Source: an uncultured Candidatus Saccharibacteria bacterium (GTDB lineage: Bacteria; Patescibacteriota; Minisyncoccia; Phycocordibacterales; WO2-35-19). Taken from it: a stretch of DNA of 64,000 bases. The first letter of the stretch is position 1. Each line of letters opens with the position of its first letter. The notes under the pieces were generated by a model that saw only the letters and a program-made list of their open reading frames with translations, was not told where the DNA came from and searched no databases. This document shows positions 1,009 to 31,084 of the stretch, one piece after another. The DNA is taken from contig CAZJPJ010000005.1 of the NCBI GenBank assembly GCA_964548205.1, positions 1,021 through 65,020 on the forward strand, given 5' to 3'. The position numbers and the translations under genes were made by a program.

Positions 1009-1114
1009 TCTACTATTTTAGTAGGGTTGGAAATTTAAAAATCTACAAACAATCTTGTCACGTGATACAGTTTCATCTGTGTCTTTATACCTTTAAACAT
1101 AATTTGAATTTTAG

Positions 1115-11949: not shown

Positions 11950-13095
11950 ATGTCTAAGAGGATACTCATATTTTCTACTGCCTACTTTCCATTTGTTGGC
12001 GGGGCAGAAGTTGCAGTTAAAGAGATCACCGATCGAATTTCGGGTGTAGAGTTCGATATGATTACAGCAAAGATGAAGAAAGGATTGCCATTCAAGGAGA
12101 AAGTAGGAAATGTGAATGTATATAGATTGGGAGTCGGAGTGCCAATAATAGACAAACTCCTGCTACCTTTTGATGGGGCTTTTTTTACCAACCATCTTAA
12201 AAAGAAGAATAGCTATGGTGCATATTGGTGTGTTATGTCTACATACGCAAGCGGGGCTGCGTATATAAGCAACATGTTCTCAAAAGTAAAAGTTCCGATC
12301 GTTTTAAACTTACAAGAAGGGGACTCGGAGGAATATTTTAGTAGAAAATGGTTCGGTCTTATCAATTTATCATGGAGATTGGCATTGAAATTTTCTAGCC
12401 ATATCACTGTCTTGAGTAGTTCGCTAAAAGAGAGAGCTCTAAGGTTTGGATACAAGGGTGATTTGGATGTCATACCAAACGCTGTAGATGTTGGTTATTT
12501 TTCTAAACAAATTCATGCTTCAGAAAGAATTGAGATCAGAGATAAATGGAAGGTTGCAAGTGAGGACATTGTCCTTATAACAACTTCTAGGTTAAATGAA
12601 AAAAATGGTATAGCAGACGTTATAAAGTCGCTGCCTCATCTCCAAAATGTGGTATTTGTGGTTTGTGGCGATGGTGAGTTAAGGGGGTCATTAGAAAAGA
12701 GTGCAAGGGAGTTAGGAGTAGAGCGGAGAGTTGTTTTTCTTGGTAATATTTCTCATGCTGATTTACCAAAGTATCTACAAGCCGCTGATATATTTATAAG
12801 GCCTTCTCTGTCAGAAGGATTCGGGGTTTCTTTTGTAGAGGCAATGGCTGCCAAAATTCCAGTTATAGCTACTCCAGTTGGCGGAATAGTTGATTTTGTC
12901 AGAGACGGAGAGACTGGTTATTTGTGCAAACCACATGATTATCTTAGTATTGTCGATACCGTTAGACGGGTGATTAATGATGAAAATAAAGGCAAAGTTG
13001 TAAACACAGCGTTTGAAATGGTAAAGGAGAAGTATGATTGGGATAGGATTGCGCCGAAAGTATTAGAAGTGTTTGATAAAATTGGTAAAAGATAA
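11950..13095 (+). CDS. Glycosyltransferase, GT4 family
   Basis: EGFGVSFVEAMAAKIPVIATPVGG GT4 signature. N-terminal MSKRILIFSTAYFPFVGGAE. Confidence 0.75.
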   Translation: MSKRILIFSTAYFPFVGGAEVAVKEITDRISGVEFDMITAKMKKGLPFKEKVGNVNVYRLGVGVPIIDKLLLPFDGAFFTNHLKKKNSYGAYWCVMSTYASGAAYISNMFSKVKVPIVLNLQEGDSEEYFSRKWFGLINLSWRLALKFSSHITVLSSSLKERALRFGYKGDLDVIPNAVDVGYFSKQIHASERIEIRDKWKVASEDIVLITTSRLNEKNGIADVIKSLPHLQNVVFVVCGDGELRGSLEKSARELGVERRVVFLGNISHADLPKYLQAADIFIRPSLSEGFGVSFVEAMAAKIPVIATPVGGIVDFVRDGETGYLCKPHDYLSIVDTVRRVINDENKGKVVNTAFEMVKEKYDWDRIAPKVLEVFDKIGKR

Positions 13096-13105
13096 TATCA
13101 GGTAT

Positions 13106-14059
13106 ATGAAAAATATTTTAGTAACAGGGTGTGCTGGTTTTATAGGAAGTAATTTTTGTCGACAGTTTGCTGATCAGTTTTCTAATGTAAAGGTTATAGG
13201 TCTAGACGATCTTTCCAGTGGTAGAAGGGAAGTGATAGATAAGAGAGTAAAATTCTATAAAGGCTCCATAATAAATGAAAAATTAGTTGAAAACATATTT
13301 AAGACAGAGAAGCCTGAGTATGTGTTCCATTTTGCAGCCATACCTAGGGTTTCTTTTTCGGTTGAAGAACCTGTCAAAACTACTGATGCAAATGTGTTGG
13401 GCACTGTTGTCATATTAAATGCCGCTCGCAAGTATTCGGTCAAGAGAGTCGTATTGTCCTCTTCTTCTTCTGTTTATGGTGGGGCAAAAAAATTACCAAC
13501 AAAAGAAATAGAAAATTTACCTGATCCAAAATCTCCTTATGCTGGACAGAAGTATTGCGACGAGGTTTTTTGTAAAATCTTTGGTGATATATATAAGCTT
13601 GATACAGTCTGTCTACGATATTTCAATGTATATGGTCCGGGTCAGTATGGGGATTCTGCTTATTCTACTGTCATATCTGCTTGGCTAGAAGCTCTGTATT
13701 TTCCAAAAAATAAAAAAGCTTTTATAGAAGGGGATGGTAATCAGTCTAGGGATTTTTGTTATGTAGACAATGTGGTTCAGGCCAATATTAAGGCTATGCA
13801 AATGAAGAAGAACTCTTTTGGAGAAGTTTTTAATATTGCTCATGGTGAAAGAACTAGTGTAAACACTGTTAAAAAGCTTATAGAAAAACATACAGAAAGA
13901 AGACTGGAATTAGAGAAGAGAGCTTCAAGAATAGGAGATGTCAAACATACTCATGCAGATATTTCTAAAGCTAAAAAATGGTTTGGATATAATCCTACCG
14001 TCACATTCGAAGAAGGACTTGTGGAAACGGTTAAGTGGTTCAAAAATAGAAAGAAATGA
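13106..14059 (+). CDS. NAD-dependent epimerase/dehydratase (extended SDR, nucleotide-sugar modifying)
   Basis: Rossmann GCAGFIGSN. Catalytic YAGQK (YxxxK). SSSSVYG. Start taken at MKNILVTG (the ORF-track start 13073 overlaps the upstream gene). Confidence 0.75.
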   Translation: MKNILVTGCAGFIGSNFCRQFADQFSNVKVIGLDDLSSGRREVIDKRVKFYKGSIINEKLVENIFKTEKPEYVFHFAAIPRVSFSVEEPVKTTDANVLGTVVILNAARKYSVKRVVLSSSSSVYGGAKKLPTKEIENLPDPKSPYAGQKYCDEVFCKIFGDIYKLDTVCLRYFNVYGPGQYGDSAYSTVISAWLEALYFPKNKKAFIEGDGNQSRDFCYVDNVVQANIKAMQMKKNSFGEVFNIAHGERTSVNTVKKLIEKHTERRLELEKRASRIGDVKHTHADISKAKKWFGYNPTVTFEEGLVETVKWFKNRKK

Positions 14060-15060: not shown

Positions 15061-16629
15061 ATGAAAATTATATCTTTGGGAATGGGTCAGAAGATATTTG
15101 AAGAAGACTCTACGGTCAGACAGAGAATGATTGAATACGGTAAGATTTTTGATGAGCTCCATATTGTTGTGTTTACTCCAAATTTGGAAAGATATAACAA
15201 ACAAAATATTGCCCCCAATGTATTTTTGTATCCTACGAGGTCAAAAGCAAGAATACTTTACGTGTTTGATTTTTTAAACATTGTAAGACAAATCATAGAA
15301 AAAATAGGCAATAAAGATTTGGTAATAAGCACTCAAGACCCGTTTGAAACTGGCTTGGTTGGTTTGTTGCTTAAACTTCGTTTTGGTCTGCCTCTGCAAG
15401 TCCAAATACATACTGATTTTGTAAATAAGTTTTTTATTAAACATTCAGTACTCAATTTTATTCGTTTACTTATTTCGCACCTAATTTTGCCTTATGCTGA
15501 TGGTGTTAGGGTTGTTTCCAAAAAAATCAGAGACTCGATCACTGATCTGTCTAGTAGTATAAGTATTTTACCGATTCTAACTACCACTAACGTTCAAAGC
15601 CAAAGCATAGAAAAACCAAGTATTTTTTCTATTATAACCGTAAGTAGACTAGAAAGCGAAAAAGCTATTTCGTTGGGTATCAAAGCATTTGCCAAATTTT
15701 TGGAAAATGGTATTAAGTCGAGGTATGTTATTGTTGGGGATGGCTCAGAAAGAAAAAGACTCGAAAAATTAGCCGAGGAACTTGGTGTAGCCGACAAGGT
15801 TTATTTTGTGGGTTGGCAAAACGACATTAGCCCTTTTTATGCTGGGGCAGATGCTTACCTTTCGACTTCCCTTTATGAGGGTTATGGCATGACTCTGATC
15901 GAAGCTTCTTTATCTGGCTTGCCGATTATAATGACCGATACTGGTTTGGCTGGAGATATTTTTATAGATGGCAAAAGTGCACTTGTCTGCAAACAAAATG
16001 ATGTAGTTGGTTTGGCCGAAGCGCTTTTTCATCTTGCTACTGACAAAACTTTTGCACAAAAGATTGCAGATAGTGGTAAAAAACAGGTTACAAGCAGACA
16101 GATTTCAAAAGAGGTTTATCTAGAAAGATACAAGAAGGCTTTGCTCCCATTGTTGAGTGTAAAGATTGCCGGAAATATTTTTAGTCGAGTTATTGAGTTG
16201 GTAAAAAATATGGTGGGCCATATTAGGTTGTTGCGTTTTGCGATTGGTGGGCTTTCTATTGCCTTAGCTCAAATATTGCTTCTCTATATTCTGACTGAAT
16301 TTGCTGGCTACTGGTATCTGCTTTCCTCAGCTATGTCTTTTTGTTTCGCTGTAATCACTAGTTTTCTGGTCCAGAAATATTGGGCGTTTAGGGATCATTC
16401 CAAAGAAAGAGCTGTAAGGCAGTTTATACAATTTGTTATAGTGGCCTTAATCGGTATCGCTACGAATACAGTTTCGATGTTTTTTTGGGTTGATTTGGTT
16501 CATGTTTGGTATGTTCTGGCTCAGGTATTTACGGGAGCTATAATAATGATTATTAATTTCCTAATATATAGATTTGTCATTTTTAAAAATACCTATGAAG
16601 ATTCTAATAATTACCCAGAAAATAGATAG
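15061..16629 (+). CDS. Fusion protein: GT4 glycosyltransferase + C-terminal GtrA-like 4-TM domain
   Basis: GT4 block YEGYGMTLIEASLSGLPIIMTDTGLAGDI. C-terminal LRFAIGGLSIALAQILLLYILTEFAGYWYLLSSAMSFCFAVITSFLVQKYWAFRD matches the GtrA-family pattern. Confidence 0.65.
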   Translation: MKIISLGMGQKIFEEDSTVRQRMIEYGKIFDELHIVVFTPNLERYNKQNIAPNVFLYPTRSKARILYVFDFLNIVRQIIEKIGNKDLVISTQDPFETGLVGLLLKLRFGLPLQVQIHTDFVNKFFIKHSVLNFIRLLISHLILPYADGVRVVSKKIRDSITDLSSSISILPILTTTNVQSQSIEKPSIFSIITVSRLESEKAISLGIKAFAKFLENGIKSRYVIVGDGSERKRLEKLAEELGVADKVYFVGWQNDISPFYAGADAYLSTSLYEGYGMTLIEASLSGLPIIMTDTGLAGDIFIDGKSALVCKQNDVVGLAEALFHLATDKTFAQKIADSGKKQVTSRQISKEVYLERYKKALLPLLSVKIAGNIFSRVIELVKNMVGHIRLLRFAIGGLSIALAQILLLYILTEFAGYWYLLSSAMSFCFAVITSFLVQKYWAFRDHSKERAVRQFIQFVIVALIGIATNTVSMFFWVDLVHVWYVLAQVFTGAIIMIINFLIYRFVIFKNTYEDSNNYPENR

Positions 16630-17611
16630 CTCAGATCCAGTATTAGGATTTTTCCATAATTGGGTTCTGAAACTTGCTCCCAATTTTGATAAGGTATCGG
16701 TAATTTGTCTGGAAAAAGGAAGGTTTGATTTGCCAGAAAACGTAAGAGTGTATTCGTTGGGTAAAGAAAAGGGGAGAAACATATTCAAGTACGTATCTCG
16801 TTTATACATGTATGTATTAGGTCTTGCTACGGAGTATGATGCTGTGTTTGTACATATGAATGAAGAATATATGGTTCTCGCTGGATTTTTGTGGAAGATT
16901 TTGAGAAAAAAAGTATATTTTTGGCGTAACCACCCCAAAGGCGGGGTCTTTACCAAGATTGGATGCCTTTTTGCAAATAAAATATTTGCCACTTCTCCCA
17001 AAACCTTTGTGATGAGGTATAAAAAAGCTATTCTCATGCCGGTAGGGGTGGATGTAGAAAAGTACAAAGTTCAAAGTGCAAAGCTAAAAGGAGAGAATAG
17101 CATTTTGTCTTTAGGCAGAATATCGCCGATAAAGAATATACACCTGATGGTAGAGGCGGCAGAAATACTAAAAGGTAAAAATAAAGAATTTATCTTTGAT
17201 ATTATGGGCGATCCTGTAAATAAAGAAGATTTTGAATACAGAGAGCAATTAAACAAATCTGGAGCTGTAAATTTTGCAGCTGCAGTAGCCAATGATAAGG
17301 CTCCAGAAATATATGGGTCTCACAAAATATTTATAAACATGACAGAGTCTGGAAGTATGGACAAGACAATTTTTGAAGCCATACTTTGTGGGTGTGTGCC
17401 GATAGTAGCAAATGATTTTTTTGACGAAATATTCGATCGGGAAATGATTTCGCGACTTGATGCAGGTGCCCTTGCTTCAAAAATAGAATATTGGTTAAAA
17501 CAAGGTGATTCAAGGTTTGAAGAGGCTAGAACAAGGCTTCGTAAATATGTGCTTGAAAATCACAGTTTAAATGCTTTAATAGACGGACTATGTACAGAAA
17601 TAAGAAAGTAA
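16595..17611 (+). CDS. Glycosyltransferase (GT-B, GT4-like)
   Basis: MKILIITQKID N-terminus. C-terminal GT-B fold with ...EAILCGCVPIVAND. The ORF-track start 16574 overlaps the upstream gene, so the internal ATG was preferred. Confidence 0.55.
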   Translation: MKILIITQKIDSSDPVLGFFHNWVLKLAPNFDKVSVICLEKGRFDLPENVRVYSLGKEKGRNIFKYVSRLYMYVLGLATEYDAVFVHMNEEYMVLAGFLWKILRKKVYFWRNHPKGGVFTKIGCLFANKIFATSPKTFVMRYKKAILMPVGVDVEKYKVQSAKLKGENSILSLGRISPIKNIHLMVEAAEILKGKNKEFIFDIMGDPVNKEDFEYREQLNKSGAVNFAAAVANDKAPEIYGSHKIFINMTESGSMDKTIFEAILCGCVPIVANDFFDEIFDREMISRLDAGALASKIEYWLKQGDSRFEEARTRLRKYVLENHSLNALIDGLCTEIRK

Positions 17612-19788
17612 GTGTTGTTATTCCAACCTATAATGAAGCTGATTCTATAAGGGCCACAATAGAGGCTTTTTATGCTACAGGAGTGGTGGATGAGGTTGTC
17701 GCTGTAGATAACAATGCTCTCCGTCACACTTCCTCTGAGATACAGAAAACAAAGGCTATACATATAAAAGAGGAGAGACAGGGCTATGGATATGCCTTGA
17801 TGAGAGGCTTAAATGAAGCCACTGGAGATTTGATCATAATGTGTGAGGCTGATGGCACAGCAGAGCCTAAAGATGTTTTAAAATTTCTTCTTTATAGCGA
17901 TAGCTTTCCTGTTGTTTTGAGTACGCGTACTTCTAGAGCTGCTATATTTTCTGGAGCTTTCATGCCATTTCCGGTAAGGGTGGGTAATTGGCTTTGGGCC
18001 AAGATAGTAGAAGTGTTGTTCAACGGGCCTTCTATGTCGGATATTGGTTCTACTTATAAACTCATAGATAGAGAAACTCTTGAAAAAATAAAAAAATATT
18101 TTGCGCTCTCAGATGGTGATGGTAAGTTTTCTCCAGAATTTATAATGTGGGTTATTCATGCAGGGGTTATGCCTATAGAGATACCTGTGCTATTTAAGCC
18201 ACGTATAGGTGAGTCTATGTATACAGGTAGTGTTTGGCGAGCGGCAAAACTAGGGTTTAGAGAGCTGTGGATGATCATAAAATACCGCTTGGGAATTATA
18301 AGCATGAAAAAATTGTCCAAAAAAAATATTGTTTCAAATTATGAGTTAGTTGCCATGACTCTAGTGTTTATTTCGTCTTTGTTTGTTAGGCTATTTTCTG
18401 CTTTAAGGTTTTCAAATGATGATCAGTTTATTCTTTATAGATACATCCAGAATATTGCAGATGGCAATGGTTTTGTTTATAACCTCGGCGAGAGGGTGTT
18501 GGGAGCGACAACTCCTTTGTTTACTTTGACTGGAGCTTTGTTAAAGTATCTTTTCTATTCACAAAATGTTCCAGACATAGTGGCTGTATTAAATATCATA
18601 CTCATAACTCTAGCTTCACTTTTCTTTTTTAAGTTGGTTCAGCATTTTGTTTCTCTGAGGTTTACATTATTATCTACACTTATATTTGGATTTAATCTTG
18701 CGAGAGTGATTCCAGAAGGAATGGAGACTAGCTTATTTATTCTTCTAGTACTTTCTTTTTTGCATTATATTTTTAATGCTAGAAAAAATATCTCCGCATT
18801 ATTGCTGGGTCTATTGTTGCTTACTAGACCGGATGGGGTAATCATAGCTGCATTCGGCTTGATGTACGTCTTTATAAATTTCGGTAGACAGGCCGCTATA
18901 AAGTTTGTCGTAATTACTAGTTGTGTTGTGCTTCCATGGTTGTTGTTTTCAACATTTTATTTTGGCTCATTTATTCCTCAATCGGTTATTGCTAAGACTC
19001 ATACTAACGATATTGTAAACCAAGTGAGCTATCAAGCATTCAAGGTACAATTTTCAAGTATAAGTAGAATATATTGGGGTAAATTATATGATCCTGACAA
19101 TATAAAATCCCAAATTGCTTTCAATTTGTTGCCGATGTTGGCCCTTATTGTTTTTTCACTTAGAAAAATTGACTATAAAAAATATTGGCTACTTTATGTA
19201 ATACCTCTTTCCTACCTTTTAACATATGGACTAAGTAACCCAGTCATGTTCCCGTGGTATTTAAGTCAGATGGAGCCTTTTTGGATAATCTTATCGTACG
19301 TGGGAGTTGTATATCTATATTCAATAATTAAATATAGGACTTTGGCACTTACCATGCTTGTATTATTTATAATTACCCCGCCCGCTTTTGGGTGGTATCA
19401 ATTAGTGTCAAGAAATGATCCTGGATCAAAGACCCCATTATTTGAAGTCGGAGAATATTTGAAAGATAATGTCAAAGATAGAGAAACTGTTGGGGTAAAT
19501 AACATAGGCATCATAGGTTATATAAGCGATGCTTACATAATAGATTTTTTTGGTTTGGTGAATAATGATTCTCCTTATTTTTATCCAGTAAATGAGTGTG
19601 TAGATAAGAGTATCCAGTATATTATTCCTCCAAATCTTATCCAACATTTCTCTCCTGATTGGTTGGTGGTTAGTGGTGAGACAGAGCTGACCGAATGTTT
19701 TAAAAAAGGAAAATGGTTCAAGAATAATTATCAGTTAGATCAAAGTATTAGTTCCGCGAGGATATACCGAAAATCAAATGAATTTTAA
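17590..19788 (+). CDS. Fusion protein: N-terminal GT2 polyprenyl-phosphate glycosyltransferase (DPM/Ppm-like) + C-terminal polytopic GT-C-like membrane domain
   Basis: VSVVIPTYNEADSI...VDNNALRHTS...GYGYALMRG...MCEADGT (GT2 DxD region). About 12 predicted TM helices follow, with loop YRYIQNIADGNGFVYNLGERVLGATTPLF. Confidence 0.65.
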   Translation: MYRNKKVSVVIPTYNEADSIRATIEAFYATGVVDEVVAVDNNALRHTSSEIQKTKAIHIKEERQGYGYALMRGLNEATGDLIIMCEADGTAEPKDVLKFLLYSDSFPVVLSTRTSRAAIFSGAFMPFPVRVGNWLWAKIVEVLFNGPSMSDIGSTYKLIDRETLEKIKKYFALSDGDGKFSPEFIMWVIHAGVMPIEIPVLFKPRIGESMYTGSVWRAAKLGFRELWMIIKYRLGIISMKKLSKKNIVSNYELVAMTLVFISSLFVRLFSALRFSNDDQFILYRYIQNIADGNGFVYNLGERVLGATTPLFTLTGALLKYLFYSQNVPDIVAVLNIILITLASLFFFKLVQHFVSLRFTLLSTLIFGFNLARVIPEGMETSLFILLVLSFLHYIFNARKNISALLLGLLLLTRPDGVIIAAFGLMYVFINFGRQAAIKFVVITSCVVLPWLLFSTFYFGSFIPQSVIAKTHTNDIVNQVSYQAFKVQFSSISRIYWGKLYDPDNIKSQIAFNLLPMLALIVFSLRKIDYKKYWLLYVIPLSYLLTYGLSNPVMFPWYLSQMEPFWIILSYVGVVYLYSIIKYRTLALTMLVLFIITPPAFGWYQLVSRNDPGSKTPLFEVGEYLKDNVKDRETVGVNNIGIIGYISDAYIIDFFGLVNNDSPYFYPVNECVDKSIQYIIPPNLIQHFSPDWLVVSGETELTECFKKGKWFKNNYQLDQSISSARIYRKSNEF

Positions 19789-21043
19789 AGATTTAGATAT
19801 AAATAATTTTAACAATGCTCTTATTTTTTTGGATATCGATGGAACCATCACTGAAGATAAGTCTCAAAAAATAGATGCGGTAGAGTTGCTTAAAATAAAA
19901 GAATTGCAATATAAAAACAAACTATACCTTTGTTCTAATGGTAATAATAGTAATATTTTTAGTAACCTGATTGGTGTGCCATATATACAAAATCGTAAAC
20001 CGTTTATTGGTAAGAGCGCGAGAAATATTTTGAGAAATTTTGATTCTAAAACTACTAATAAATTTGTCATAGGTGACAAATTTTTGACAGATGGCCTGTT
20101 TGCTTTACTAGCTAAGTCGCGGTTTATAAAAATTAGACACAAAGTCGGTGATAAGAGGACCTTGTTTGAGAGATTATCCTACCTTTTTGATGATATTGTG
20201 TGGTTCTTTTATCAAATTTTCATATTGGTAAGGCCCTTGTCGTGGGTAAAAAGTTTGCTTGTGTTTGCGCCAATCTTTTTTGCAGGAGAGATATTTGAAA
20301 TATCGATCATAACAAAAGCACTCAAGGCTTTTGTGGCGTTCTGCTTTGCTTCTAGTTTTGTTTATGTACTAAATGATATTGCAGATCGAGAAGTAGATAG
20401 AAAACATATGTTTAAAAAATATAGACCTCTAGCAAACGGTGCTATAGGTATCGGGAGTGCGTACTTTATCGCCCTTACTCTTGTTGTGTTTTTATTTAGT
20501 CTGCTATCTTTTGTTCCGGAAATAATAATACCCATTACAATCTACATTGTATTAAATGGTCTATACACTATATGGCTAAAACATATAGCAGTCTTAGACA
20601 TTATATTAGTGTCATCTTTTTATTTGCTAAGAGTCTTGGTGGGGGGTGTGGCTGTAGGGGTATATATTTCACCTTGGATTATTATGTGTGCATTCTTCGG
20701 TTCACTGTTTGTTATATCTGGTAAAAGGAGAGCGGAACATGCTAAGAAAAATAGGAGGCAGGTCCTAGACGACTATTCAGACAAAGCTCTTGATTATATA
20801 TTAGCCATATCTTCTTCCTTGGCTGTTATGGGTTATGCTATCTGGAGTGTTGTTGAGCACGATTCGCCATACCTAGTGTATTCCACAATATTTGTAGTTT
20901 TCTCTCTTTTCCGAGTTTTAAATCGAGTGTATACTCATCCTGAAGAAGCAGAGTCACCTGAGATACTAGTTTTTAAAGATGTTTATATACTCTCAGCCTT
21001 TATATTTTGGGTAATATATATGTATATTATTTTTTATCAATAA
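19778..21043 (+). CDS. Fusion protein: HAD-superfamily phosphatase (YqeG/IIIA-like) + UbiA-family polyprenyl-phosphate (phospho)glycosyl/prenyl transferase
   Basis: HAD motif I FLDIDGTIT at N-terminus. UbiA aspartate-rich motif VLNDIADREVDRKH, a second Asp-rich region DDYSDKALD, 8-9 TM helices. Confidence 0.65.
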   Translation: MNFKDLDINNFNNALIFLDIDGTITEDKSQKIDAVELLKIKELQYKNKLYLCSNGNNSNIFSNLIGVPYIQNRKPFIGKSARNILRNFDSKTTNKFVIGDKFLTDGLFALLAKSRFIKIRHKVGDKRTLFERLSYLFDDIVWFFYQIFILVRPLSWVKSLLVFAPIFFAGEIFEISIITKALKAFVAFCFASSFVYVLNDIADREVDRKHMFKKYRPLANGAIGIGSAYFIALTLVVFLFSLLSFVPEIIIPITIYIVLNGLYTIWLKHIAVLDIILVSSFYLLRVLVGGVAVGVYISPWIIMCAFFGSLFVISGKRRAEHAKKNRRQVLDDYSDKALDYILAISSSLAVMGYAIWSVVEHDSPYLVYSTIFVVFSLFRVLNRVYTHPEEAESPEILVFKDVYILSAFIFWVIYMYIIFYQ

Positions 21044-21058
21044 ATAAAATTGTAGAAT

Positions 21059-22093
21059 ATGACCTATTTTATTACAGGGGGTTCGGGTTTTTTGGGAATA
21101 AACATGGTCAGATACCTCTTGGAAAGGGGGCACAATATTGTTTCCTATGATCTTCTCCCTTTTGATTATCCTGAGAAAGATAAAATAAAATGGATAGTAG
21201 GAGACATAAGGAACAAAGATTTTCTCAAAAGTAGTATGCAGGGAAGTGATATAGTTATTCATACTGCCGCTGCACTTCCTTTGTACAGTACAGAAGATAT
21301 AAGAACAACTGATATAGATGGCACTAGGAATGTATGTGAATCAGCTCTAGAAAATGGGATAAAGCGCATGATCCATATATCTTCTACTGCTGTATATGGT
21401 ATCCCAGATCACCATCCTTTATATGAGACTGATAAGCTTGATGGTGTTGGAGAATATGGTAAGGCAAAAATTGCCGCAGAGGACATATGCAAAGATTATA
21501 GAAGTAAGGGTCTTGTGGTACCTATACTAAGACCAAAATCTTTTATTGGCCCAGAGCGCTTGGGGGTTTTTGCTTTATTTTATGATTGGGCTGCTACAGG
21601 ACATGGGTTTCCAATGATAGGGAATGGCAAGAATAGGTATCAACTCATGGACGTAGAGGATTTTTGTGAGGGTATTTATCTTGCTTCAACTTTAGAAGAA
21701 GAAAAAGTGAACGATGTTTTTAATTTTGGAGCAAAAGAGTTTACTACTATGGGCGAAGATTATCAGGCAGTACTTGATAGGGCAGGGTTTAATAAAAAGA
21801 TTTCGGGCTGGCCTGCAGCACCCATGATCTGGGCTCTTCGAGTTTTAGAATTTTTCAACCTTTCACCACTTTATAAATGGGTCTATGAGACTGCAAGTAA
21901 AGATAGTTTTGTATCAATAGAAAAGGCGGAAAGGGTACTTGGTTGGAAGCCGAAGTTTTCAAACAAAGATGCCCTCGTGAGAAATTATGAATGGTATTTG
22001 GAACACAAAGATAGTTTTATCGGCCAGAGTGGTGTAAACCACAGAGTACCTTGGAAGCAGGGTGTACTATCATTGGTAAAAAAGTTTTTCTAA
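21059..22093 (+). CDS. NAD-dependent epimerase/dehydratase (extended SDR)
   Basis: ITGGSGFLGINMVRYLLERGH Rossmann motif. YGKAK catalytic YxxxK. Confidence 0.75.
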   Translation: MTYFITGGSGFLGINMVRYLLERGHNIVSYDLLPFDYPEKDKIKWIVGDIRNKDFLKSSMQGSDIVIHTAAALPLYSTEDIRTTDIDGTRNVCESALENGIKRMIHISSTAVYGIPDHHPLYETDKLDGVGEYGKAKIAAEDICKDYRSKGLVVPILRPKSFIGPERLGVFALFYDWAATGHGFPMIGNGKNRYQLMDVEDFCEGIYLASTLEEEKVNDVFNFGAKEFTTMGEDYQAVLDRAGFNKKISGWPAAPMIWALRVLEFFNLSPLYKWVYETASKDSFVSIEKAERVLGWKPKFSNKDALVRNYEWYLEHKDSFIGQSGVNHRVPWKQGVLSLVKKFF

Positions 22094-22111
22094 TTTTATC
22101 TAAAAATCTAA

Positions 22112-22152
22112 AAATGAAACCCCGCCCTCGGCTTTCGCCTCGGGCGGGGTGA
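22112..22152 (-). terminator. GC-rich hairpin terminator between convergent genes (U-tract on minus-strand transcript)
   Basis: ccccgccc(22120-22127)...gggcgggg(22142-22149) stem. On the minus transcript it is followed by uuucauuuuu. Confidence 0.6.
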
Positions 22153-22173
22153 AGAACTTGTGGGGGAAAGGGG

Positions 22174-22707
22174 CTAGATCCACCCCTTCAACCAATGGTG
22201 GAAGCGAGACACCCGCTCCCACAAAATATAGATCGGTGCGCACCAGATTTGAATGTGGGGGTTGCCCAACTCGTACGGTACCTTTCCTGGGTCAAGGATC
22301 CCGACAACCTTGAACTCCAGCTTTTCGGCCACCCACTTGCATCGCATAGCGTGCATGGGGTGGGCGAGGATGACGATACTCTTGAGTTGCGGGCGCGCCG
22401 CCCTCAATATTAAGAAGAAATCGCGAGTGCTGATGTGGTCGGCTCCAGGTTTGCCGACTACCACAGGGGAGTTTTGGGCGATACCCTCAAACTCCCACTG
22501 AAGGGTGAGGGGTTTCCGAAGGTTCTCCTCATAATTCAGGCCAGCTTCAGCTAGTGCTCTATTGCTCGGGTTTATGGGGTCCCCGAGCTTTATGGTCCCA
22601 AACGGGACCACTGCGATGGTGTCAAAAGGGGGAATCACCGCCCCCTGATATGTCTTGAGGTACTTGGAAGGACCCCAGTACCCAAAGAGTTTTTGAAATG
22701 TACTCAC
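22174..22707 (-). CDS. DUF218 (YdcF/ElyC-like) domain protein, inside a GC-rich island; GTG start with AGGAGG SD
   Basis: ...HISTRDFFLILRAA...KSIVILAHPMHAMRCKWVAEKLEF matches the DUF218 S-R-N-T-x-E-N ... VTS-x-x-H-M-x-R motif pair. ORF-track start 22914 replaced by GTG at 22705-22707, preceded by aggagg (22712-22717 rc) at 5-nt spacing. Local GC ~55% versus ~38% genome. Confidence 0.55.
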   Translation of the reverse strand: MSTFQKLFGYWGPSKYLKTYQGAVIPPFDTIAVVPFGTIKLGDPINPSNRALAEAGLNYEENLRKPLTLQWEFEGIAQNSPVVVGKPGADHISTRDFFLILRAARPQLKSIVILAHPMHAMRCKWVAEKLEFKVVGILDPGKVPYELGNPHIQIWCAPIYILWERVSRFHHWLKGWI

Positions 22708-22715
22708 TTTTCCTC

Positions 22716-23450
22716 CTAATTTACAGGTTGTGAAAGGTTTTTCTTGGCGAAGTATTCTACGCCAAGAATTTTGTAAACGGGTAGCCCAAAGAGGTTGGCA
22801 ACGATCCATGTCTGCCAGTACCTCTGGGCGATCATTGGACTGTTCGGGTCGTCGTCCCCCTTCATGGGGGTAGAGACGAACCAAAGTTTTTCTTTTGGGT
22901 GGTAGTGTCTCCACACCATCCGAGCCCTACGTATGTGAGCTCCGTTGCCGACAATGATCGACGGGCCGATAGTAGTGCCGCCATTGACCTCGAGCGCTTT
23001 TGCCACCAGAAGCTCTCTTTCGTCAGTGGTACTCGATGCGTTGCCAGCATTTTTAATCCGGCCAAACAAAGAGTTACGAAGTGCGAGAACTTTTTTACTT
23101 GCAAATTCTTTTGATCCCTCGGGGTTATCTCGGAATTCGCATGAAAAAATACGTGAGTCCGGATACTCGTACGCCAGTAGAATGGCGAGCAGTGTGGTGT
23201 TGAGAGACATACACGTTAGCCCCTGTTCGTTTGCTGCATACGATATCAGGAATACGTTTTTTATTCCGTCATTGCTGGGCAATTCATGCCGTTCGTCTAT
23301 CTCCATCCAAGGTATGAATAGGGATAGTATTCGAGATACTAGCCATGATGTCAAAAACCTGATCACAGCCGGCTTACCAAGAAGCCGGAGAAATTTTTGT
23401 TCCACGATTTCAATCTCCTTCTTTTGTGATTTAAGCATAAAATTTGGCAT
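22716..23450 (-). CDS. DUF218-like domain protein (divergent paralog of downstream gene), GC-rich island
   Basis: ...NASSTTDERELLVAKALEVNGGTTIGPSIIVGNGAHIRRARMVW parallels SRNTYENA...LVTSAFHMPRA of DUF218. N-terminal TM helix. Confidence 0.45.
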   Translation of the reverse strand: MPNFMLKSQKKEIEIVEQKFLRLLGKPAVIRFLTSWLVSRILSLFIPWMEIDERHELPSNDGIKNVFLISYAANEQGLTCMSLNTTLLAILLAYEYPDSRIFSCEFRDNPEGSKEFASKKVLALRNSLFGRIKNAGNASSTTDERELLVAKALEVNGGTTIGPSIIVGNGAHIRRARMVWRHYHPKEKLWFVSTPMKGDDDPNSPMIAQRYWQTWIVANLFGLPVYKILGVEYFAKKNLSQPVN

Positions 23451-23489
23451 TTTGCAAGTTTAGTCTTGCCTTTATTTTAACACTCTTTT

Positions 23490-25175
23490 TTGTTACTTTT
23501 ACTACACATGAATTTGTCAAAAAAGGAACTGCTAGTTTTCTTGGGATTAATTATTTTGTTTTTTGCTCTGCGGCTGCCGGGAGTTACTACCCCATACCAT
23601 CAAGATGAATACAAATGGCCGCTTTATGCCGAAGAGAAGGTCTATGCTCCAGGGAGCGTACCTCACCCTCCACTTACAGAATTTATTTATAGAGTGGTGG
23701 GCAAACATATAGGGTTAGACAATTTTAGATTCATCCCCCTAACTTTTGGTTTTATAAATTTATTTCTACTTTTCTATCTTGTCTCTTTTATTTTTGATCG
23801 CAAGACTGCTTTTTGGGCTGTCGGACTCCATACTGTATCTTTCTACTCCATACTTGCTAACCTTATGGTCGATGTGGATGGTAGTGTTATGCCCTTTTTC
23901 TTTCTTACCTCTCTAATTGGTTATTACAAGATGAGGCTTCTTGATTTCAAACTTGTCAGACAAAATATAAAATGGCCCATCTTACTTCTCTTGGGTATCG
24001 TGGGAGGATTTCTTATCAAAGTCAGTTTCTTTTTGAGCATCGCTGCTATAGGAGCAGATTTTTTGTTTGAAAAAAGAGTTTTCTCTGATAAGAAAAAAGT
24101 ATTGAAATATAGTTTTTATGCATCACTCGCAATGTTGGGGCTTGTGCTTATACTTCTCTCTATCAAATATATATTCCCGTTTTTTGATCTGTCAAAAGCT
24201 CTTAAATATTGGGAGCATTTCGCTGTGTTTAGTGGCAGAGGTTGGGGTCAGACGTTTATACAGTTTGCAAAGTCTCTTATGTACATTTCACCGATGCTTC
24301 TCTTGCCTCTTGCTTTTGTAAACAGAGATCTTTGGGCCAGAGCGAGACCAATGTTTCTATTTCTATTTTTTGCTACAGTTTTCTATCTCTTGGTCTTTGA
24401 TTTCTCTTTGGGTGCTATCGACAGGTATTTTCAGTTTGCAGTGGTACCGCTATCTATAATAGTAGGTTCTATATTTGCAAGCTATATAAAATGGGAAGAT
24501 GCGAAGGAGTTTAGAGAGAAGAAATATTTGTATATATCTATATCTATCGCAGTAATTATATTCCTTATCCAATTGTTGCCACATGTAGCACCGCCTCTGT
24601 ATCCTAAAAGTGAATGGGTAGGCAGGGTCTTTTCTTTAGAGTGGAACTTATTGTTCCCATTTATGGGTGGTTCTGGACCGATACCGTTTTATATGTCTTT
24701 TGGTTTTATAGCACTTAGCTTCATTGCTTCTTTGGTTTTTGTTGTATCAGCTATATTTAGACGAAAGATTATTAGTTTTGCTCTACTTTCTGTACTTATA
24801 TTAGGACTTTCTTACAACTTTGCTTTTACACAAGAATACTTATTTGGCAAGATAAATGGTAGCTCCAAAAATCTTGTAAAAGAAGCACTCGAGTATATAG
24901 AGAAAGATCAAAAAATAAAAAAAGTTGTGGTTTATAATGATAACGGTGGATGGGATGTAAGGAAAACCGGCAAGTATGCTCGTAGGATGTATGCTACTCC
25001 AGAGTTTGAAGATGAATATAAAGAATATCTAGAGGCTTTTAGTGGTCATGTTATGTTTGTGGGTGTACCAACACTATATAAGAATAGTTTTTATCAACAA
25101 TATTTTGATTCTTGCGAAGTTGTTTATACAAAGAGAGATAAACAAATCGGGTCTAAAATATATAAATGTAATTAG
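23490..25175 (+). CDS. GT-C fold membrane glycosyltransferase (ArnT/PMT-like, lipid-phosphosugar dependent)
   Basis: 12-13 TM helices. First extracytoplasmic loop PYHQDEYKWPLY (DE motif as in ArnT/PMT family). Large C-terminal soluble domain. Confidence 0.55.
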   Translation: MLLLLHMNLSKKELLVFLGLIILFFALRLPGVTTPYHQDEYKWPLYAEEKVYAPGSVPHPPLTEFIYRVVGKHIGLDNFRFIPLTFGFINLFLLFYLVSFIFDRKTAFWAVGLHTVSFYSILANLMVDVDGSVMPFFFLTSLIGYYKMRLLDFKLVRQNIKWPILLLLGIVGGFLIKVSFFLSIAAIGADFLFEKRVFSDKKKVLKYSFYASLAMLGLVLILLSIKYIFPFFDLSKALKYWEHFAVFSGRGWGQTFIQFAKSLMYISPMLLLPLAFVNRDLWARARPMFLFLFFATVFYLLVFDFSLGAIDRYFQFAVVPLSIIVGSIFASYIKWEDAKEFREKKYLYISISIAVIIFLIQLLPHVAPPLYPKSEWVGRVFSLEWNLLFPFMGGSGPIPFYMSFGFIALSFIASLVFVVSAIFRRKIISFALLSVLILGLSYNFAFTQEYLFGKINGSSKNLVKEALEYIEKDQKIKKVVVYNDNGGWDVRKTGKYARRMYATPEFEDEYKEYLEAFSGHVMFVGVPTLYKNSFYQQYFDSCEVVYTKRDKQIGSKIYKCN

Positions 25176-30266: not shown

Positions 30267-31084
30267 TGATGATAAGTTTAAGTATAATCATACCGACATA
30301 CAAACGCCCAGAGCTTCTCAAAAGGTGTTTAATGAGTGTGGTCAAAGAAAGAGGAGATTTCGAAATATTCGTTATAGACGATGCCTCGAATGATACCACA
30401 GAAGAAGTGGTAAGGAGCCTAAATGACGAAAGAATAGTATACCTTCTTCAGGATAAAAATAGGGGAGTAAACGCCGCTAGGAACAGAGCCATTGGTCTTT
30501 CAAAAAGCGAATGGGTTTTTTGCCTAGATGACGATGATGAGTTATTGCCCGGGGCCATAGATTTGATAAGTAAGAGACTGTCAGAAATGCCTCAAAATTA
30601 TAATGTTGCTTACTTTAATTCAAAAATTAAACGAGATGCTGGTGATTTGATTGGCGGATTCCAGTTTGGTGCCGAAAACTTTTTTGATCCAAGTTACCTT
30701 GAGACTATGACAAAGTATAACCTTAAAGGTGATTGCAAGCCTGCATTCAGGAAGGTTTTGTTTGACAATCAAAGATATAAGTTTCCAGAATCGGTTAATG
30801 GTTTCGAATCTTATACTATGAATATAATAGCTAAAGACAATAAAGGTATTAGGTATTGGAAAGATGTGGTCACTCTTATTCATCAAGAGAGTGCTCTAAT
30901 AGACCGCCTTAGTGTCACTGCTTCCAAGAAAAATCCTTGGCCGCTTCTTGTGCTTCATGTAAAGCAGCTATTTGAACATTTTATTTTTTATACAAAAAAA
31001 CCTATCTTTTTATACAAAAAAATAAAAGACATCATAAAACTTTTGGTGAGGTCTTTGTTTTCTTTGTTCGGTATCAGGTGGTAG
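30266..31084 (+). CDS. Glycosyltransferase, GT2 family
   Basis: LSIIIPTYKRPELL...VIDDASND...CLDDDDEL (DxD) GT-A signature. Confidence 0.75.
   Translation: MMISLSIIIPTYKRPELLKRCLMSVVKERGDFEIFVIDDASNDTTEEVVRSLNDERIVYLLQDKNRGVNAARNRAIGLSKSEWVFCLDDDDELLPGAIDLISKRLSEMPQNYNVAYFNSKIKRDAGDLIGGFQFGAENFFDPSYLETMTKYNLKGDCKPAFRKVLFDNQRYKFPESVNGFESYTMNIIAKDNKGIRYWKDVVTLIHQESALIDRLSVTASKKNPWPLLVLHVKQLFEHFIFYTKKPIFLYKKIKDIIKLLVRSLFSLFGIRW

What the first reader, a model, noticed from the sequence alone, without database searches (positions are those of the whole stretch)
17590..25175. Candidate lipid-linked pentose/hexose donor pathway: GT2+GT-C fusion, HAD-phosphatase+UbiA fusion, SDR epimerase and ArnT/PMT-like GT-C
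The gene order resembles the mycobacterial decaprenyl-phospho-arabinose logic, but with different and fused parts. The mycobacterial route is UbiA-type polyprenyl-P phosphoribosyltransferase, then a phosphatase, then 2'-epimerisation by DprE1/DprE2, with GT-C transferases using the lipid donor. Here the phosphatase is a HAD domain fused N-terminal to the UbiA enzyme, rather than a separate PAP2 phosphatase. The only redox candidate is a single extended-SDR epimerase (21059-22093), where mycobacteria use the FAD oxidase DprE1 plus the reductase DprE2. One GT-C domain is fused to a GT2 polyprenyl-P-sugar synthase, and a second free GT-C enzyme sits at 23490. This suggests a compact route to polyprenyl-P-linked sugars for extracytoplasmic glycosylation.
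Basis: inference. Interest (0 to 1): 0.75.

Follow-up and report, generated by a model that had tools for sequence, protein, structure and literature searches.

The report
Lipid-linked pentose sugar donor pathway
This gene block in an uncultured ultrasmall (Patescibacteria-type) bacterium most likely makes a ribose-derived sugar carried on a membrane lipid and attaches it to a surface polysaccharide outside the cell; the scheme was shown in Citrobacter in 2024, and here it is built from partly different enzymes.

Summary
All four ORFs sit at the stated coordinates and every domain call holds. These are a GT2 fused to a GT-C, a HAD phosphatase fused to a UbiA enzyme, an extended SDR, and a free PMT_2-type GT-C.

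The UbiA domain belongs to the phosphoribosyltransferase (DPPR synthase, PPPRS) clade: Rv3806c scores E 4e-37, the next UbiA structure 0.004. The four HAD motifs are conserved in 24 homologues. The fused GT-C is an AftB homologue (profile E 1e-18).

An orthologous SDR (63-86% identical) follows the UbiA gene across Patescibacteria. More distant members (31-50% identical) lie next to it in haloarchaea, Streptomyces and rhizobia. The phosphatase at those loci varies (HAD-IIIA, PHP, EEP, HAD-IB). No DprE1 or DprE2 homologue is present.

The logic is not new. Kelly et al. 2024 (PNAS) showed HAD-PPPRS, flippase and GT-C systems, with one SDR (ORF13) converting lipid-linked ribofuranose to xylofuranose. 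This locus is a variant of that kind. It has an independently fused HAD-IIIA, an AftB-like rather than GT136 transferase, a GtrA domain as flippase candidate, and a parallel GT2/PMT_2 branch.

Whether the SDR inverts C2 (arabinose) or C3 (xylose) is unresolved.

The parts
16234..16629 (+). GtrA-like transmembrane domain (aa 392-508 of the GT4-GtrA fusion ORF 15061-16629). It is the only candidate flippase for polyprenyl-P-sugars in the window.
   Evidence: PF04138, E 6.8e-22. No SMR, MATE-like or other GtrA homologue was found elsewhere in the window. Relatives carry an SMR gene next to UbiA, or a GtrA domain fused to the SDR (L008).
17590..18297 (+). GT2 domain of the fusion protein. It belongs to the polyprenyl-phosphate glycosyltransferase type (DPMS/GtrB/ArnC-like) and is predicted to make a polyprenyl-P-hexose.
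   Evidence: PF00535, E 1.5e-16. NCBIfam AglJ and Dol-P-hexose transferase. PDB sequence hits to DPMS 5mlz and ArnC. Foldseek hits to ArnC, GtrB and DPMS.
18298..19788 (+). AftB-like GT-C domain of the fusion protein. It is predicted to be the extracytoplasmic pentofuranosyltransferase that uses the lipid-linked donor.
   Evidence: NF041481 (AftB), E 1.7e-8. An 18-sequence profile hits only AftB 9dlf, E 1.2e-18. The DD motif (D277, D278) is invariant. Model pLDDT is above 90, and AftB has the lowest rmsd among the GT-C matches. A homologue lies directly upstream of UbiA in most of the 18 cluster-2 loci, including Ignavibacteria and Bacteroidota loci that have no GT2.
19778..20197 (+). HAD-IIIA (YqeG/GEP4-like) phosphatase domain. 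It is predicted to remove the 5-phosphate from polyprenyl-P-ribose-5-P.
   Evidence: TIGR01668 E 3e-8 and TIGR01662 E 2.8e-6. PF09419 E 0.002. Invariant D19xD21GT23, S53N54 and G99D100K101..D105; K74 kept in at least 90%.
20198..21043 (+). UbiA-superfamily polyprenyl-phosphate 5-phosphoribosyltransferase (PPPRS/DPPR synthase) domain.
   Evidence: PDB 8j8j (Rv3806c), E 4.3e-37. NF008978 scores 197 bits against a cut-off of 207. N199D200xxD203xxxD207 and K316R317..E320 are conserved.
21059..22093 (+). Extended SDR of a distinct family that is associated with PPPRS genes. It is predicted to epimerise lipid-linked ribofuranose.
   Evidence: PF01370. Catalytic motifs are invariant. The fold is GalE-like (TM 0.73). 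Identity is 63-86% across Patescibacteria and it follows UbiA. More distant members lie next to a DPPRS-like UbiA in haloarchaea, Streptomyces and rhizobia.
22119..22150 (.). GC-rich hairpin between the convergent SDR gene and the inserted minus-strand genes. On the minus strand it is followed by a T-rich tract, so it is probably the terminator of the insert.
   Evidence: Inverted repeat I2: 14-nt arms with a 4-nt loop. Sequence read.
22174..23450 (-). Inserted pair of minus-strand ORFs (22716-23450, 244 aa; 22174-22914, 246 aa as listed). A Shine-Dalgarno-like site precedes a GTG near 22708, which is the more likely start of the second ORF. The pair is not part of the pathway and interrupts the SDR-GT-C junction seen in relatives.
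   Evidence: ORFs. GC is 0.497 against 0.33-0.39 for the neighbours. The insert is absent from L001 and L085, where the GT-C gene directly follows the SDR gene. The only family hit is a weak DUF218 match (E 0.16). No plasmid hit.
23490..25175 (+). Free GT-C glycosyltransferase of the PMT_2/ArnT type (probable start ATG 23508). It is predicted to use the GT2-made polyprenyl-P-hexose, or alternatively the pentofuranose donor.
   Evidence: PMT_2 at 25.3 bits in the window. Five of six orthologues match PMT_2, best E 3e-11. The Y36-H37-Q38-D39-E40 motif is invariant. In L008 and L050 the GT2 gene lies directly upstream of its orthologue. GT2+PMT_2 fusions exist (P0467, P0468).

Best explanation
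This is a Patescibacteria version of the 'three-component' system for adding pentofuranose sugars to glycans outside the membrane. It is embedded in a Wzx/Wzy-type surface-polysaccharide gene cluster.

Inferred steps:
1. The UbiA (PPPRS) domain transfers ribose-5-phosphate from PRPP to a polyprenyl phosphate on the cytoplasmic face.
2. The fused HAD-IIIA domain removes the 5-phosphate, giving polyprenyl-P-ribofuranose.
3. The conserved extended SDR inverts one hydroxyl of the lipid-linked ribose by transient NAD-dependent oxidation and reduction, as GalE does. Inversion at C3 would give xylofuranose, the published precedent. Inversion at C2 would give arabinofuranose. Which one occurs is not resolved.
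4. A GtrA-like domain (an SMR protein in relatives) flips the donor across the membrane.
5. The AftB-like GT-C domain transfers the pentofuranose to the polysaccharide made by the surrounding cluster.

A second, parallel branch is inferred. The GT2 domain makes a polyprenyl-P-hexose, and the free PMT_2-type GT-C uses it.

Shown here: domain identities, motif conservation and conserved gene linkage. Inferred: every substrate and product, and which GT-C uses which donor.
For: PPPRS identity. PDB 8j8j (Rv3806c) scores E 4.3e-37 over residues 150-412, with NDxxDxxxD and GKRxAE aligned. The next UbiA structure scores E 0.004. The three best NCBIfam hits are DPPR-synthase models.

HAD. The domain matches YqeG/HAD-IIIA models. 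Motifs I, II and IV are invariant in 24 homologues and the motif III lysine is kept in at least 90%. More than 100 fused homologues were found in Patescibacteria.

Functional linkage.
- In Patescibacteria loci the same parts recur in shuffled order: HAD before UbiA, after UbiA (L009, L017), or after the SDR (L020). In L041 a PHP phosphatase replaces the HAD.
- The SDR is 63-86% identical across lineages in which HAD-UbiA is only 35-51% identical.
- Thirty of the 120 listed SDR clusters share an exact contig length with a listed HAD-UbiA cluster.
- In L008 the SDR is fused to a GtrA-like membrane domain.
- The same SDR family lies next to a DPPRS-like UbiA and an unrelated phosphatase in haloarchaea (PHP domain; 49-51% identical in three of the four records and about 500-600 nt from the UbiA gene; in Natronococcus CG52 about 3 kb away, on the far side of a GT-C gene and two other genes), in Streptomyces (EEP; 38%) and in rhizobial plasmids (HAD-IB fusion; 31%).
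- In my sample, the Chryseobacterium-group, actinomycete, Nitrosomonadales and Enterovibrio loci carry DprE1- and DprE2-like genes and never this SDR. The Ignavibacteria and Bacteroidota loci carry neither. No DprE1 or DprE2 homologue is in the window.
- The closest relative (L084) has the same cluster without the SDR. This mirrors the C. youngae O1/O2 pair.

GT-C. The profile hits only AftB, E 1.2e-18, and the fold is confirmed.

Precedent. PMC11127046 showed biochemically that a HAD-PPPRS fusion makes lipid-P-Ribf from PRPP. It also showed genetically that one SDR (ORF13) converts the side chain to Xylf.
Against: There is no biochemical evidence for any protein of this locus.

NF008978 scores 197.4 bits, just under its cut-off of 207, and the HAD models score below their cut-offs.

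The window has no MATE or SMR flippase. The GtrA domain is fused to a GT4 two genes upstream, so its role as flippase is a guess.

The GT2 domain is fused to the AftB-like GT-C here, yet in other genomes it is adjacent or fused to the PMT_2-type GT-C. Which transferase uses which donor is therefore ambiguous.

The SDR's nearest solved relatives all act on nucleotide sugars.

Its relationship to the characterised ORF13 could not be tested, because that sequence was not obtainable.

The GC-rich insert, with its own terminator, separates the SDR gene from the downstream GT-C gene and may uncouple their expression.
Confidence: 0.75

Rival explanations
1. Same pathway, opposite pairing of transferases. 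The fused GT2 and AftB-like GT-C work together: polyprenyl-P-hexose is made and used by the two halves of one protein. The free PMT_2-type GT-C at 23490 would then be the pentofuranosyltransferase.
For: The two domains form one polypeptide here and in six other clusters. They are adjacent genes in L001 and L085. The free GT-C directly follows SDR or UbiA in L001, L085 and L084. Kelly et al. found the GT-C tolerant of different donors.
Against: AftB, the only solved relative of the fused GT-C, uses a polyprenyl-P-pentofuranose. The AftB-like GT-C lies directly upstream of UbiA in Ignavibacteria and Bacteroidota loci that have no GT2 hit. In L008 and L050 the GT2 lies directly upstream of the PMT_2-type GT-C, and P0467 and P0468 fuse those two.
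Confidence: 0.25
2. The SDR is an ordinary nucleotide-sugar epimerase or dehydratase that supplies a donor for the GT2 or GT4 enzymes of the cluster. On this view the lipid-linked ribofuranose is used without epimerisation.
For: All sequence and structure neighbours with known function act on NDP-sugars: GalE, RmlB and UDP-GlcA epimerases. The closest relative, L084, works without the SDR.
Against: The SDR tracks the UbiA gene, not the GT2 or GT4 genes. This holds across Patescibacteria, haloarchaea (no GT2 nearby), Streptomyces and rhizobia. It is fused to a GtrA membrane domain in L008. The window already has a TviC/GalE-type epimerase at 13073-14059, only 22% identical to this SDR. The family has its own invariant C-terminal tail, HRxPWKQGxL.
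Confidence: 0.12
3. The UbiA domain is a conventional aromatic or haem prenyltransferase, and the cluster has nothing to do with PRPP.
For: Pfam assigns only the generic UbiA family. JGI automatic names include '4-hydroxybenzoate polyprenyltransferase'.
Against: Rv3806c scores E 4e-37, while every quinone, haem or chlorophyll model scores 1e-5 or worse. The context is purely glycan-related.
Confidence: 0.02

Closest known systems
Three-component pentofuranose side-chain systems: Citrobacter youngae O1/O2 ORF12-ORF15 (Kelly et al. 2024, PNAS, PMC11127046)
   Same: Both have an N-terminal HAD phosphatase fused to a UbiA-type polyprenyl-phosphate phosphoribosyltransferase. Both have a GT-C transferase acting outside the membrane and an optional single SDR epimerase with GalE-type motifs. 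Both are embedded in a surface-polysaccharide locus. Close relatives differ by presence or absence of the SDR (L084 versus the window, like O1 versus O2).
   Different: The HAD here is the capless IIIA/YqeG type, not the HAD-IB 'PRP' type. The proteobacterial fusions match NF006088 over their full length (584-609 bits), whereas the window protein matches only over its UbiA part (138 bits). This points to an independent fusion. The GT-C is AftB-like and was not shown to be GT136. No MATE or SMR gene is in the window; a GtrA domain is present instead. An extra GT2/PMT_2 branch is present. The host is Patescibacteria. Orthology of the SDR with ORF13 was not tested.
Mycobacterial decaprenyl-phospho-arabinose pathway (Rv3806c UbiA, Rv3807c, DprE1/DprE2, Rv3789, AftB and other GT-C enzymes)
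   Same: The UbiA domain is a clear homologue of Rv3806c. The fused GT-C is a homologue of AftB, and in my fetched loci (Patescibacteria, Ignavibacteria, Bacteroidota) the AftB-like gene lies directly upstream of the UbiA gene. From memory, aftB (Rv3805c) and ubiA (Rv3806c) are likewise adjacent in M. tuberculosis; I did not check this. Both have a GtrA-like protein in the neighbourhood.
   Different: The phosphatase is a HAD domain, not the separate, non-HAD phosphatase Rv3807c. There is no DprE1 (FAD) or DprE2 (classical SDR) homologue. The SDR here shows no detectable similarity to DprE2-like proteins. The product may be xylofuranose or ribofuranose rather than arabinofuranose.
GtrA/GtrB/GtrC and ArnC/ArnT-type lipid-linked glycosylation
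   Same: The GT2 domain is of the GtrB/ArnC/DPMS type, and the free GT-C is of the PMT_2/ArnT type. A GtrA-like domain is present.
   Different: Here the GT2 lacks its own membrane anchor and is fused to a GT-C. The module sits beside a PRPP-dependent pentofuranose branch.

Membership tests
PPPRS / DPPR-synthase clade of the UbiA superfamily | Closer to Rv3806c-type enzymes than to quinone, haem or chlorophyll prenyltransferases | tested here: met
   8j8j E 4.3e-37 against 4tq3 E 0.004. DPPRS models score E 3e-42 to 3e-58, against about 1e-5 for haem O synthase and UbiA models.
PPPRS / DPPR-synthase clade of the UbiA superfamily | Cytoplasmic loop motifs NDxxDxxxD and (K/R)R..E, needed for activity in Rv3806c and ORF15 | tested here: met
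   N199, D200, D203, D207, K316 and R317 are invariant, and E320 is kept in at least 90% of 24 homologues. They align with the Rv3806c motifs. The residues' role is described in PMC11127046.
PPPRS / DPPR-synthase clade of the UbiA superfamily | Score above the curated NCBIfam cut-off | tested here: not met
   NF008978 scores 197.4 bits against a cut-off of 207, a narrow miss. NF008977 scores 167.6 against 234.
PPPRS / DPPR-synthase clade of the UbiA superfamily | PRPP-dependent transfer of ribose-5-P to polyprenyl phosphate | not testable with these tools
   This needs an enzyme assay.
HAD superfamily phosphatase | Catalytic motifs I (DxDxT), II (S/T), III (K) and IV (GDxxxD) | tested here: met
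   D19, D21, G22, T23, S53, N54, G99, D100, K101 and D105 are invariant. K74 is kept in at least 90%.
PRP-type HAD-PPPRS fusion (C. youngae ORF15, NCBIfam NF006088) | Full-length match to NF006088, including the N-terminal HAD-IB/PRP domain | tested here: not met
   The window protein matches NF006088 only at profile positions 195-399, scoring 138 bits against a cut-off of 351. The Rhizobium and Vibrio fusions match over their full length at 609 and 584 bits, and the Rhizobium one carries a HAD-IB signal. tblastn with the PRP domain finds nothing in the Patescibacteria loci, and the window's HAD finds nothing in the PRP loci.
Three-component pentofuranose system (Kelly et al. 2024) | A dedicated MATE or SMR flippase gene in the locus | tested here: not met
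   No SMR homologue is in the window. The only MOP/MATE-superfamily gene is the Wzx-type flippase at 31074-32327. A GtrA domain is present at 16234-16629. SMR genes lie next to UbiA in nine related loci.
Three-component pentofuranose system (Kelly et al. 2024) | A GT-C transferase next to the PPPRS gene | tested here: met
   The AftB-like GT-C domain ends 11 nt inside the PPPRS ORF. The fold is confirmed. GT136 membership was not tested because no ORF12 sequence was available.
Three-component pentofuranose system (Kelly et al. 2024) | The SDR is an orthologue of ORF13, the Ribf-to-Xylf epimerase | not tested
   The ORF13 sequence appears only as an image in the supplement. The listed accessions are absent from the available collections.
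Mycobacterial DPA pathway | DprE1 (FAD oxidase) plus DprE2 (classical SDR) for 2'-epimerisation | tested here: not met
   tblastn with DprE1- and DprE2-like proteins from L075 finds nothing in the 64-kb window or beside UbiA in the Patescibacteria loci; the only hit there is a weak one (53 bits) to a classical SDR about 6 kb away in L001. The SDR shows no BLAST similarity to DprE2-like proteins.
Extended SDR (GalE-like epimerase/dehydratase) | GxxGxxG NAD site, catalytic S/T and YxxxK, and a two-domain extended fold | tested here: met
   G7, G8, G10, G13, S108, S109, T110, Y133 and K137 are invariant. PF01370 scores E 7e-37. Foldseek's top hits are GalE enzymes, TM 0.73.
AftB-type GT-C arabinofuranosyltransferase | Sequence homology over the N-terminal transmembrane region, including the loop-1 DD motif | tested here: met
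   The profile hits only 9dlf, E 1.2e-18, at positions 22-246, with 'ilDDqfi' aligned to 'IADDGLI'. D277 and D278 are invariant.
AftB-type GT-C arabinofuranosyltransferase | Transfer of arabinofuranose from a polyprenyl-P-Araf donor | not testable with these tools
   Donor and linkage need biochemistry.

The most novel reading that the evidence does not exclude
The PPPRS-associated SDR family seen here would be a single-protein 2'-epimerase that makes polyprenyl-P-arabinofuranose without DprE1/DprE2. The family is 63-86% identical across Patescibacteria and 31-50% identical in haloarchaea, actinomycetes and rhizobia. Patescibacteria and some archaea would then build arabinofuranose-containing surface glycans with AftB-like enzymes, by a route insensitive to DprE1 inhibitors.
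Probability: 0.3. Interest if true: 0.75.

Novelty: new variant of a known kind. Interest (0 to 1): 0.5.

Why it matters
Patescibacteria have tiny genomes and live on other cells, so what they display on their surface probably matters for attachment. This locus predicts that many of them spend conserved genes on decorating a polysaccharide with a pentofuranose carried on a lipid. None of the full-text searches I ran connected this pathway with the group.

The phosphoribosyltransferase-phosphatase-SDR trio recurs in bacteria and archaea, with the phosphatase swapped between unrelated families. This defines a clean and easily tested candidate family of lipid-linked pentose epimerases.

If that family makes arabinofuranose, it would be a second, DprE1-independent route to the donor targeted by tuberculosis drug candidates. 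If it makes xylofuranose, it extends the Citrobacter ORF13 finding far beyond Proteobacteria.

Tried and rejected
1. I tried to obtain the C. youngae O2 ORF13 sequence to test orthology with the SDR. The supplement shows the alignment only as an image. CP110301.1, BK026208.1, CP099034.1 and NZ_CP099034.1 are not in the collections. blastn of a Vibrio PRP-PPPRS gene against the E. coli genomes found nothing. The Vibrio, Cereibacter and Burkholderia PRP-PPPRS loci I could read have either no epimerase or DprE1/DprE2, and no ORF13-like SDR.

2. I looked for a solved relative of the free GT-C. Neither the single sequence nor a 6-sequence profile gave a meaningful PDB sequence hit. Profile-profile comparison with the AftB-like family was weak (probability 29%). 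Its GT-C assignment rests on PMT_2 matches in the orthologues.

3. I tested whether the insert at 22094-23489 is a mobile element or a known gene. It has no terminal repeats. Its only family hit is a weak DUF218 match (E 0.16). It has no meaningful PDB hit and no plasmid hit. The two ORFs are not paralogues.

4. The exact-sequence look-up of the window's own protein found no contig. Taxonomy therefore rests on the relatives and on the 23S insertion.

5. The C-terminal tail of the SDR as a membrane-binding amphipathic helix: the hydrophobic moment is 0.44, against 0.23 +/- 0.13 for the rest of the protein. This is suggestive only and is not used as evidence.

6. Literature searches linking the pathway to Patescibacteria found nothing.

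Full report
**Observation.** All are on the + strand, and the first three are tightly packed. They lie inside a long glycan-biosynthesis cluster spanning roughly 3.7-34.5 kb. That cluster holds a Bac_transf initiating transferase, several GT4 genes, a GT4-GtrA fusion, methyltransferases, a TupA-like ATP-grasp, DUF362, a Wzx-type flippase and a Wzy_C/TPR protein. The window starts with the 3' end of a 23S rRNA that carries about 650 extra nucleotides, followed by a 5S rRNA. Base composition is 38% GC. All close protein relatives come from Patescibacteria (CPR) metagenome bins, the nearest named one being a Zambryskibacteria bin.

**Domain calls.** The first ORF has an N-terminal GT2 domain (PF00535, E 1.5e-16). 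It resembles AglJ, Dol-P-hexose transferase, DPMS and ArnC. Its C-terminal 490 residues have no Pfam hit but match mycobacterial AftB: NF041481 at E 1.7e-8, and PDB 9dlf. A profile of 18 homologues hits AftB and nothing else significant in the PDB (E 1.2e-18), and the loop-1 DD motif is aligned. An AlphaFold model has pLDDT 87.8, above 90 through the membrane part. Its front third matches ArnC/GtrB/DPMS. The rest matches STT3, AftB (the lowest rmsd, 6.0-6.5 Å over about 560 columns) and ArnT.

The fusion is inherited, not an error. Six other protein clusters of 727-733 aa have it. In the nearest fetched relatives the GT2 (237-242 aa) and the GT-C (473-496 aa) are separate genes: adjacent in L001 and L085, and further apart in L084. 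The fusion is therefore young.

The second ORF has a UbiA domain whose best solved relative is Rv3806c. PDB 8j8j scores E 4.3e-37, and the NDxxDxxxD and GKRxAE motifs align. The next UbiA structure scores E 0.004. Its first 140 residues match the capless YqeG/HAD-IIIA and PGP-phosphatase models weakly. Motifs I, II and IV are invariant in 24 homologues and the motif III lysine is kept in at least 90%. The third ORF is an extended SDR with an intact NAD site and an intact S/T and YxxxK catalytic set. Its fold is GalE-like. The fourth ORF is a PMT_2-type GT-C. It falls just under the Pfam cut-off here, but 5 of 6 orthologues match, best E 3e-11, and a YHQDE motif is invariant.

**Comparative evidence.** I fetched 80 loci encoding relatives of the HAD-UbiA protein and more from contig and plasmid look-ups. 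The same parts recur in Patescibacteria from the Zambryski-, Saccharibacteria, Pacei-, Peregrini- and Gracilibacteria groups. These parts are an AftB-like GT-C, a small SMR-like membrane protein, the HAD, the UbiA and the SDR.

Their order is shuffled. The HAD lies before UbiA, after UbiA (L009, L017), or after the SDR and SMR genes (L020). In L041 a PHP-domain phosphatase takes its place. In L008 the SDR is fused to a GtrA-like membrane domain.

The SDR is far more conserved than its neighbours. It is 63-86% identical where HAD-UbiA is 35-51% identical. Thirty of the 120 listed SDR clusters share an exact contig length with a listed HAD-UbiA cluster.

Outside Patescibacteria the same SDR family, with a shared C-terminal tail HRxPWKQGxL, also lies near a DPPRS-like UbiA gene:
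- Haloarchaeal plasmids: 48-51% identical, with a PHP phosphatase and GT-C genes. In three records the SDR lies about 500-600 nt from the UbiA gene. In Natronococcus CG52 it lies about 3 kb away, on the far side of a GT-C gene and two other genes.
- A Streptomyces plasmid: 38% identical, with an EEP-family phosphatase.
- Rhizobial symbiosis plasmids, including pNGR234a: 31% identical. These carry SMR genes, a GMC oxidoreductase, a second SDR and a HAD-IB-UbiA fusion.

About 413 representative clusters match the SDR at E <= 1e-30. By contrast, loci from the Chryseobacterium group, actinomycetes, Nitrosomonadales, Enterovibrio and Cereibacter have DprE1-like and DprE2-like genes beside UbiA and lack this SDR. 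The Ignavibacteria and Bacteroidota loci have neither. The window has no DprE1, DprE2, SMR, PHP, EEP or GMC homologue. The closest relative of the window's HAD-UbiA protein (L084, 51% identical) has the same cluster but no SDR, and it has two tandem AftB-like GT-Cs.

**What is already known.** Kelly et al. 2024 (PMC11127046) described 'three-component systems' for adding pentofuranose side chains outside the membrane. In Citrobacter youngae, ORF15 is an N-terminal HAD phosphatase (PRP) fused to a UbiA-like PPPRS. It makes lipid-P-ribofuranose from PRPP, and a D18A mutant keeps the 5-phosphate. ORF14 is a MATE flippase (SMR in other systems). ORF12 is a GT-C that founds family GT136. In serotype O2 a single GalE-like SDR, ORF13, converts the ribofuranose side chain to xylofuranose. 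The authors report that systems for arabinofuranose-containing glycans carry DprE1/DprE2 homologues instead. One of their candidate loci, Rhizobium sp. CCGE531 CP032687.1, is among my SDR hits.

**What differs here.** First, the HAD is of a different subfamily. Proteobacterial fusions match NCBIfam NF006088 over their full length, and the Rhizobium one carries a HAD-IB signal. The window protein matches that model only over its UbiA part and has a YqeG-type HAD-IIIA domain. The two HAD domains do not find each other by tblastn. The fusion therefore arose independently. Second, the transferase next to UbiA is an AftB homologue. Third, the flippase candidate is a GtrA domain fused to a GT4. Fourth, there is a parallel GT2 plus PMT_2-type GT-C branch, with one GT2 domain fused to the 'other' GT-C. 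Fifth, the host is a lineage for which my full-text searches found nothing on this pathway.

**Mechanism.** The steps are inferred by homology and gene linkage. PRPP plus polyprenyl-P gives polyprenyl-P-ribose-5-P (UbiA domain). Dephosphorylation follows (HAD domain). One hydroxyl is then epimerised (SDR). The donor is flipped (GtrA domain here, SMR in relatives). The AftB-like GT-C then transfers the sugar to the cluster's polysaccharide.

I pair the AftB-like GT-C with the pentofuranose donor for two reasons. AftB itself uses such a donor. Homologues also lie directly upstream of UbiA in Ignavibacteria and Bacteroidota loci that have no GT2. I pair the GT2 with the PMT_2-type GT-C because they are adjacent in L008 and L050 and fused in P0467 and P0468. 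The fusion in the window argues the other way, so I keep the opposite pairing as a rival at 0.25.

The carbon inverted by the SDR is not resolved. The only characterised single-SDR case gives the C3 epimer. The AftB-like partner, and the fact that the SDR and DprE1/E2 never co-occur in my sample, are compatible with C2. I put C3 at about 0.45, C2 at about 0.3, and other outcomes at about 0.25. The ORF13 sequence that would settle orthology could not be obtained.

**The gap in the span.** Positions 22094-23489 carry two minus-strand ORFs in a 49.7% GC stretch, with a hairpin and T-tract terminator of their own. L001 and L085 have no such insert: there the GT-C gene directly follows the SDR gene. 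The ORFs have no convincing family, structure or plasmid match. I treat this as a foreign insertion that is not part of the pathway. It may uncouple expression of the downstream GT-C.

**Verdict.** It is a new variant rather than a new kind. Its most interesting part is the strongly conserved, cross-domain SDR family tied to PPPRS genes, whose product is unknown. Interest 0.5.

Noticed in passing
window 22094-23489 (ORFs 22716-23450 and 22174-22914, minus strand): A GC-rich (49.7% against 33-39%) 1.4-kb insert carries two orphan minus-strand ORFs and its own hairpin/T-tract terminator. It sits between the SDR gene and the downstream GT-C gene. L001 and L085 lack it. The only family match is a weak DUF218 hit (E 0.16). 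No terminal repeats were found.
   Followed up: partly
window 1-1014: The 3' end of the 23S rRNA covers 359 model positions (2567-2925) but spans 1014 nt, so about 650 nt are inserted. The insertion holds no ORF longer than 63 aa, so no homing endonuclease is evident. Such rRNA insertions are, to my knowledge, common in Patescibacteria.
   Followed up: partly
window 10116-11918: A 600-aa TrwB/TraG-like coupling-protein homologue (weak Pfam hits) lies in the middle of the glycan cluster. L085 has a 599-aa counterpart in the same position, upstream of the GT4 genes, so the placement is conserved.
   Followed up: no
window 53485-61287: A single 2600-aa ORF on the + strand, in a stretch with higher GC (41-45%). 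Not examined.
   Followed up: no
L084 3537-4931 and 5212-7925: The closest relative of the window's HAD-UbiA protein has a B12-binding radical SAM gene inserted on the minus strand between the GT2 and the GT-C genes. It has two tandem AftB-like GT-Cs and no SDR. This is a natural 'minus-epimerase' variant of the same cluster.
   Followed up: partly
L081 (Rhizobium sp. CCGE531 pRCCGE531b) and L086 (pNGR234a, next to nodS/nodU): Rhizobial symbiosis plasmids carry an elaborate version of the module. It has the same SDR family, two SMR genes, a GMC (FAD) oxidoreductase, a 658-aa membrane protein, a second SDR and a HAD-IB-UbiA fusion. The GMC plus second SDR could be an analogue of DprE1/DprE2. 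The glycan they modify is unknown.
   Followed up: partly
L082, L087 (Natronococcus, Halostagnicola plasmids): Haloarchaea have the SDR (48-51% identical to the window's) together with a DPPRS-like UbiA, a PHP-domain phosphatase, GT-C genes and a lysyl-PG-synthase-like membrane protein. This suggests a lipid-linked pentofuranose pathway in archaea.
   Followed up: partly
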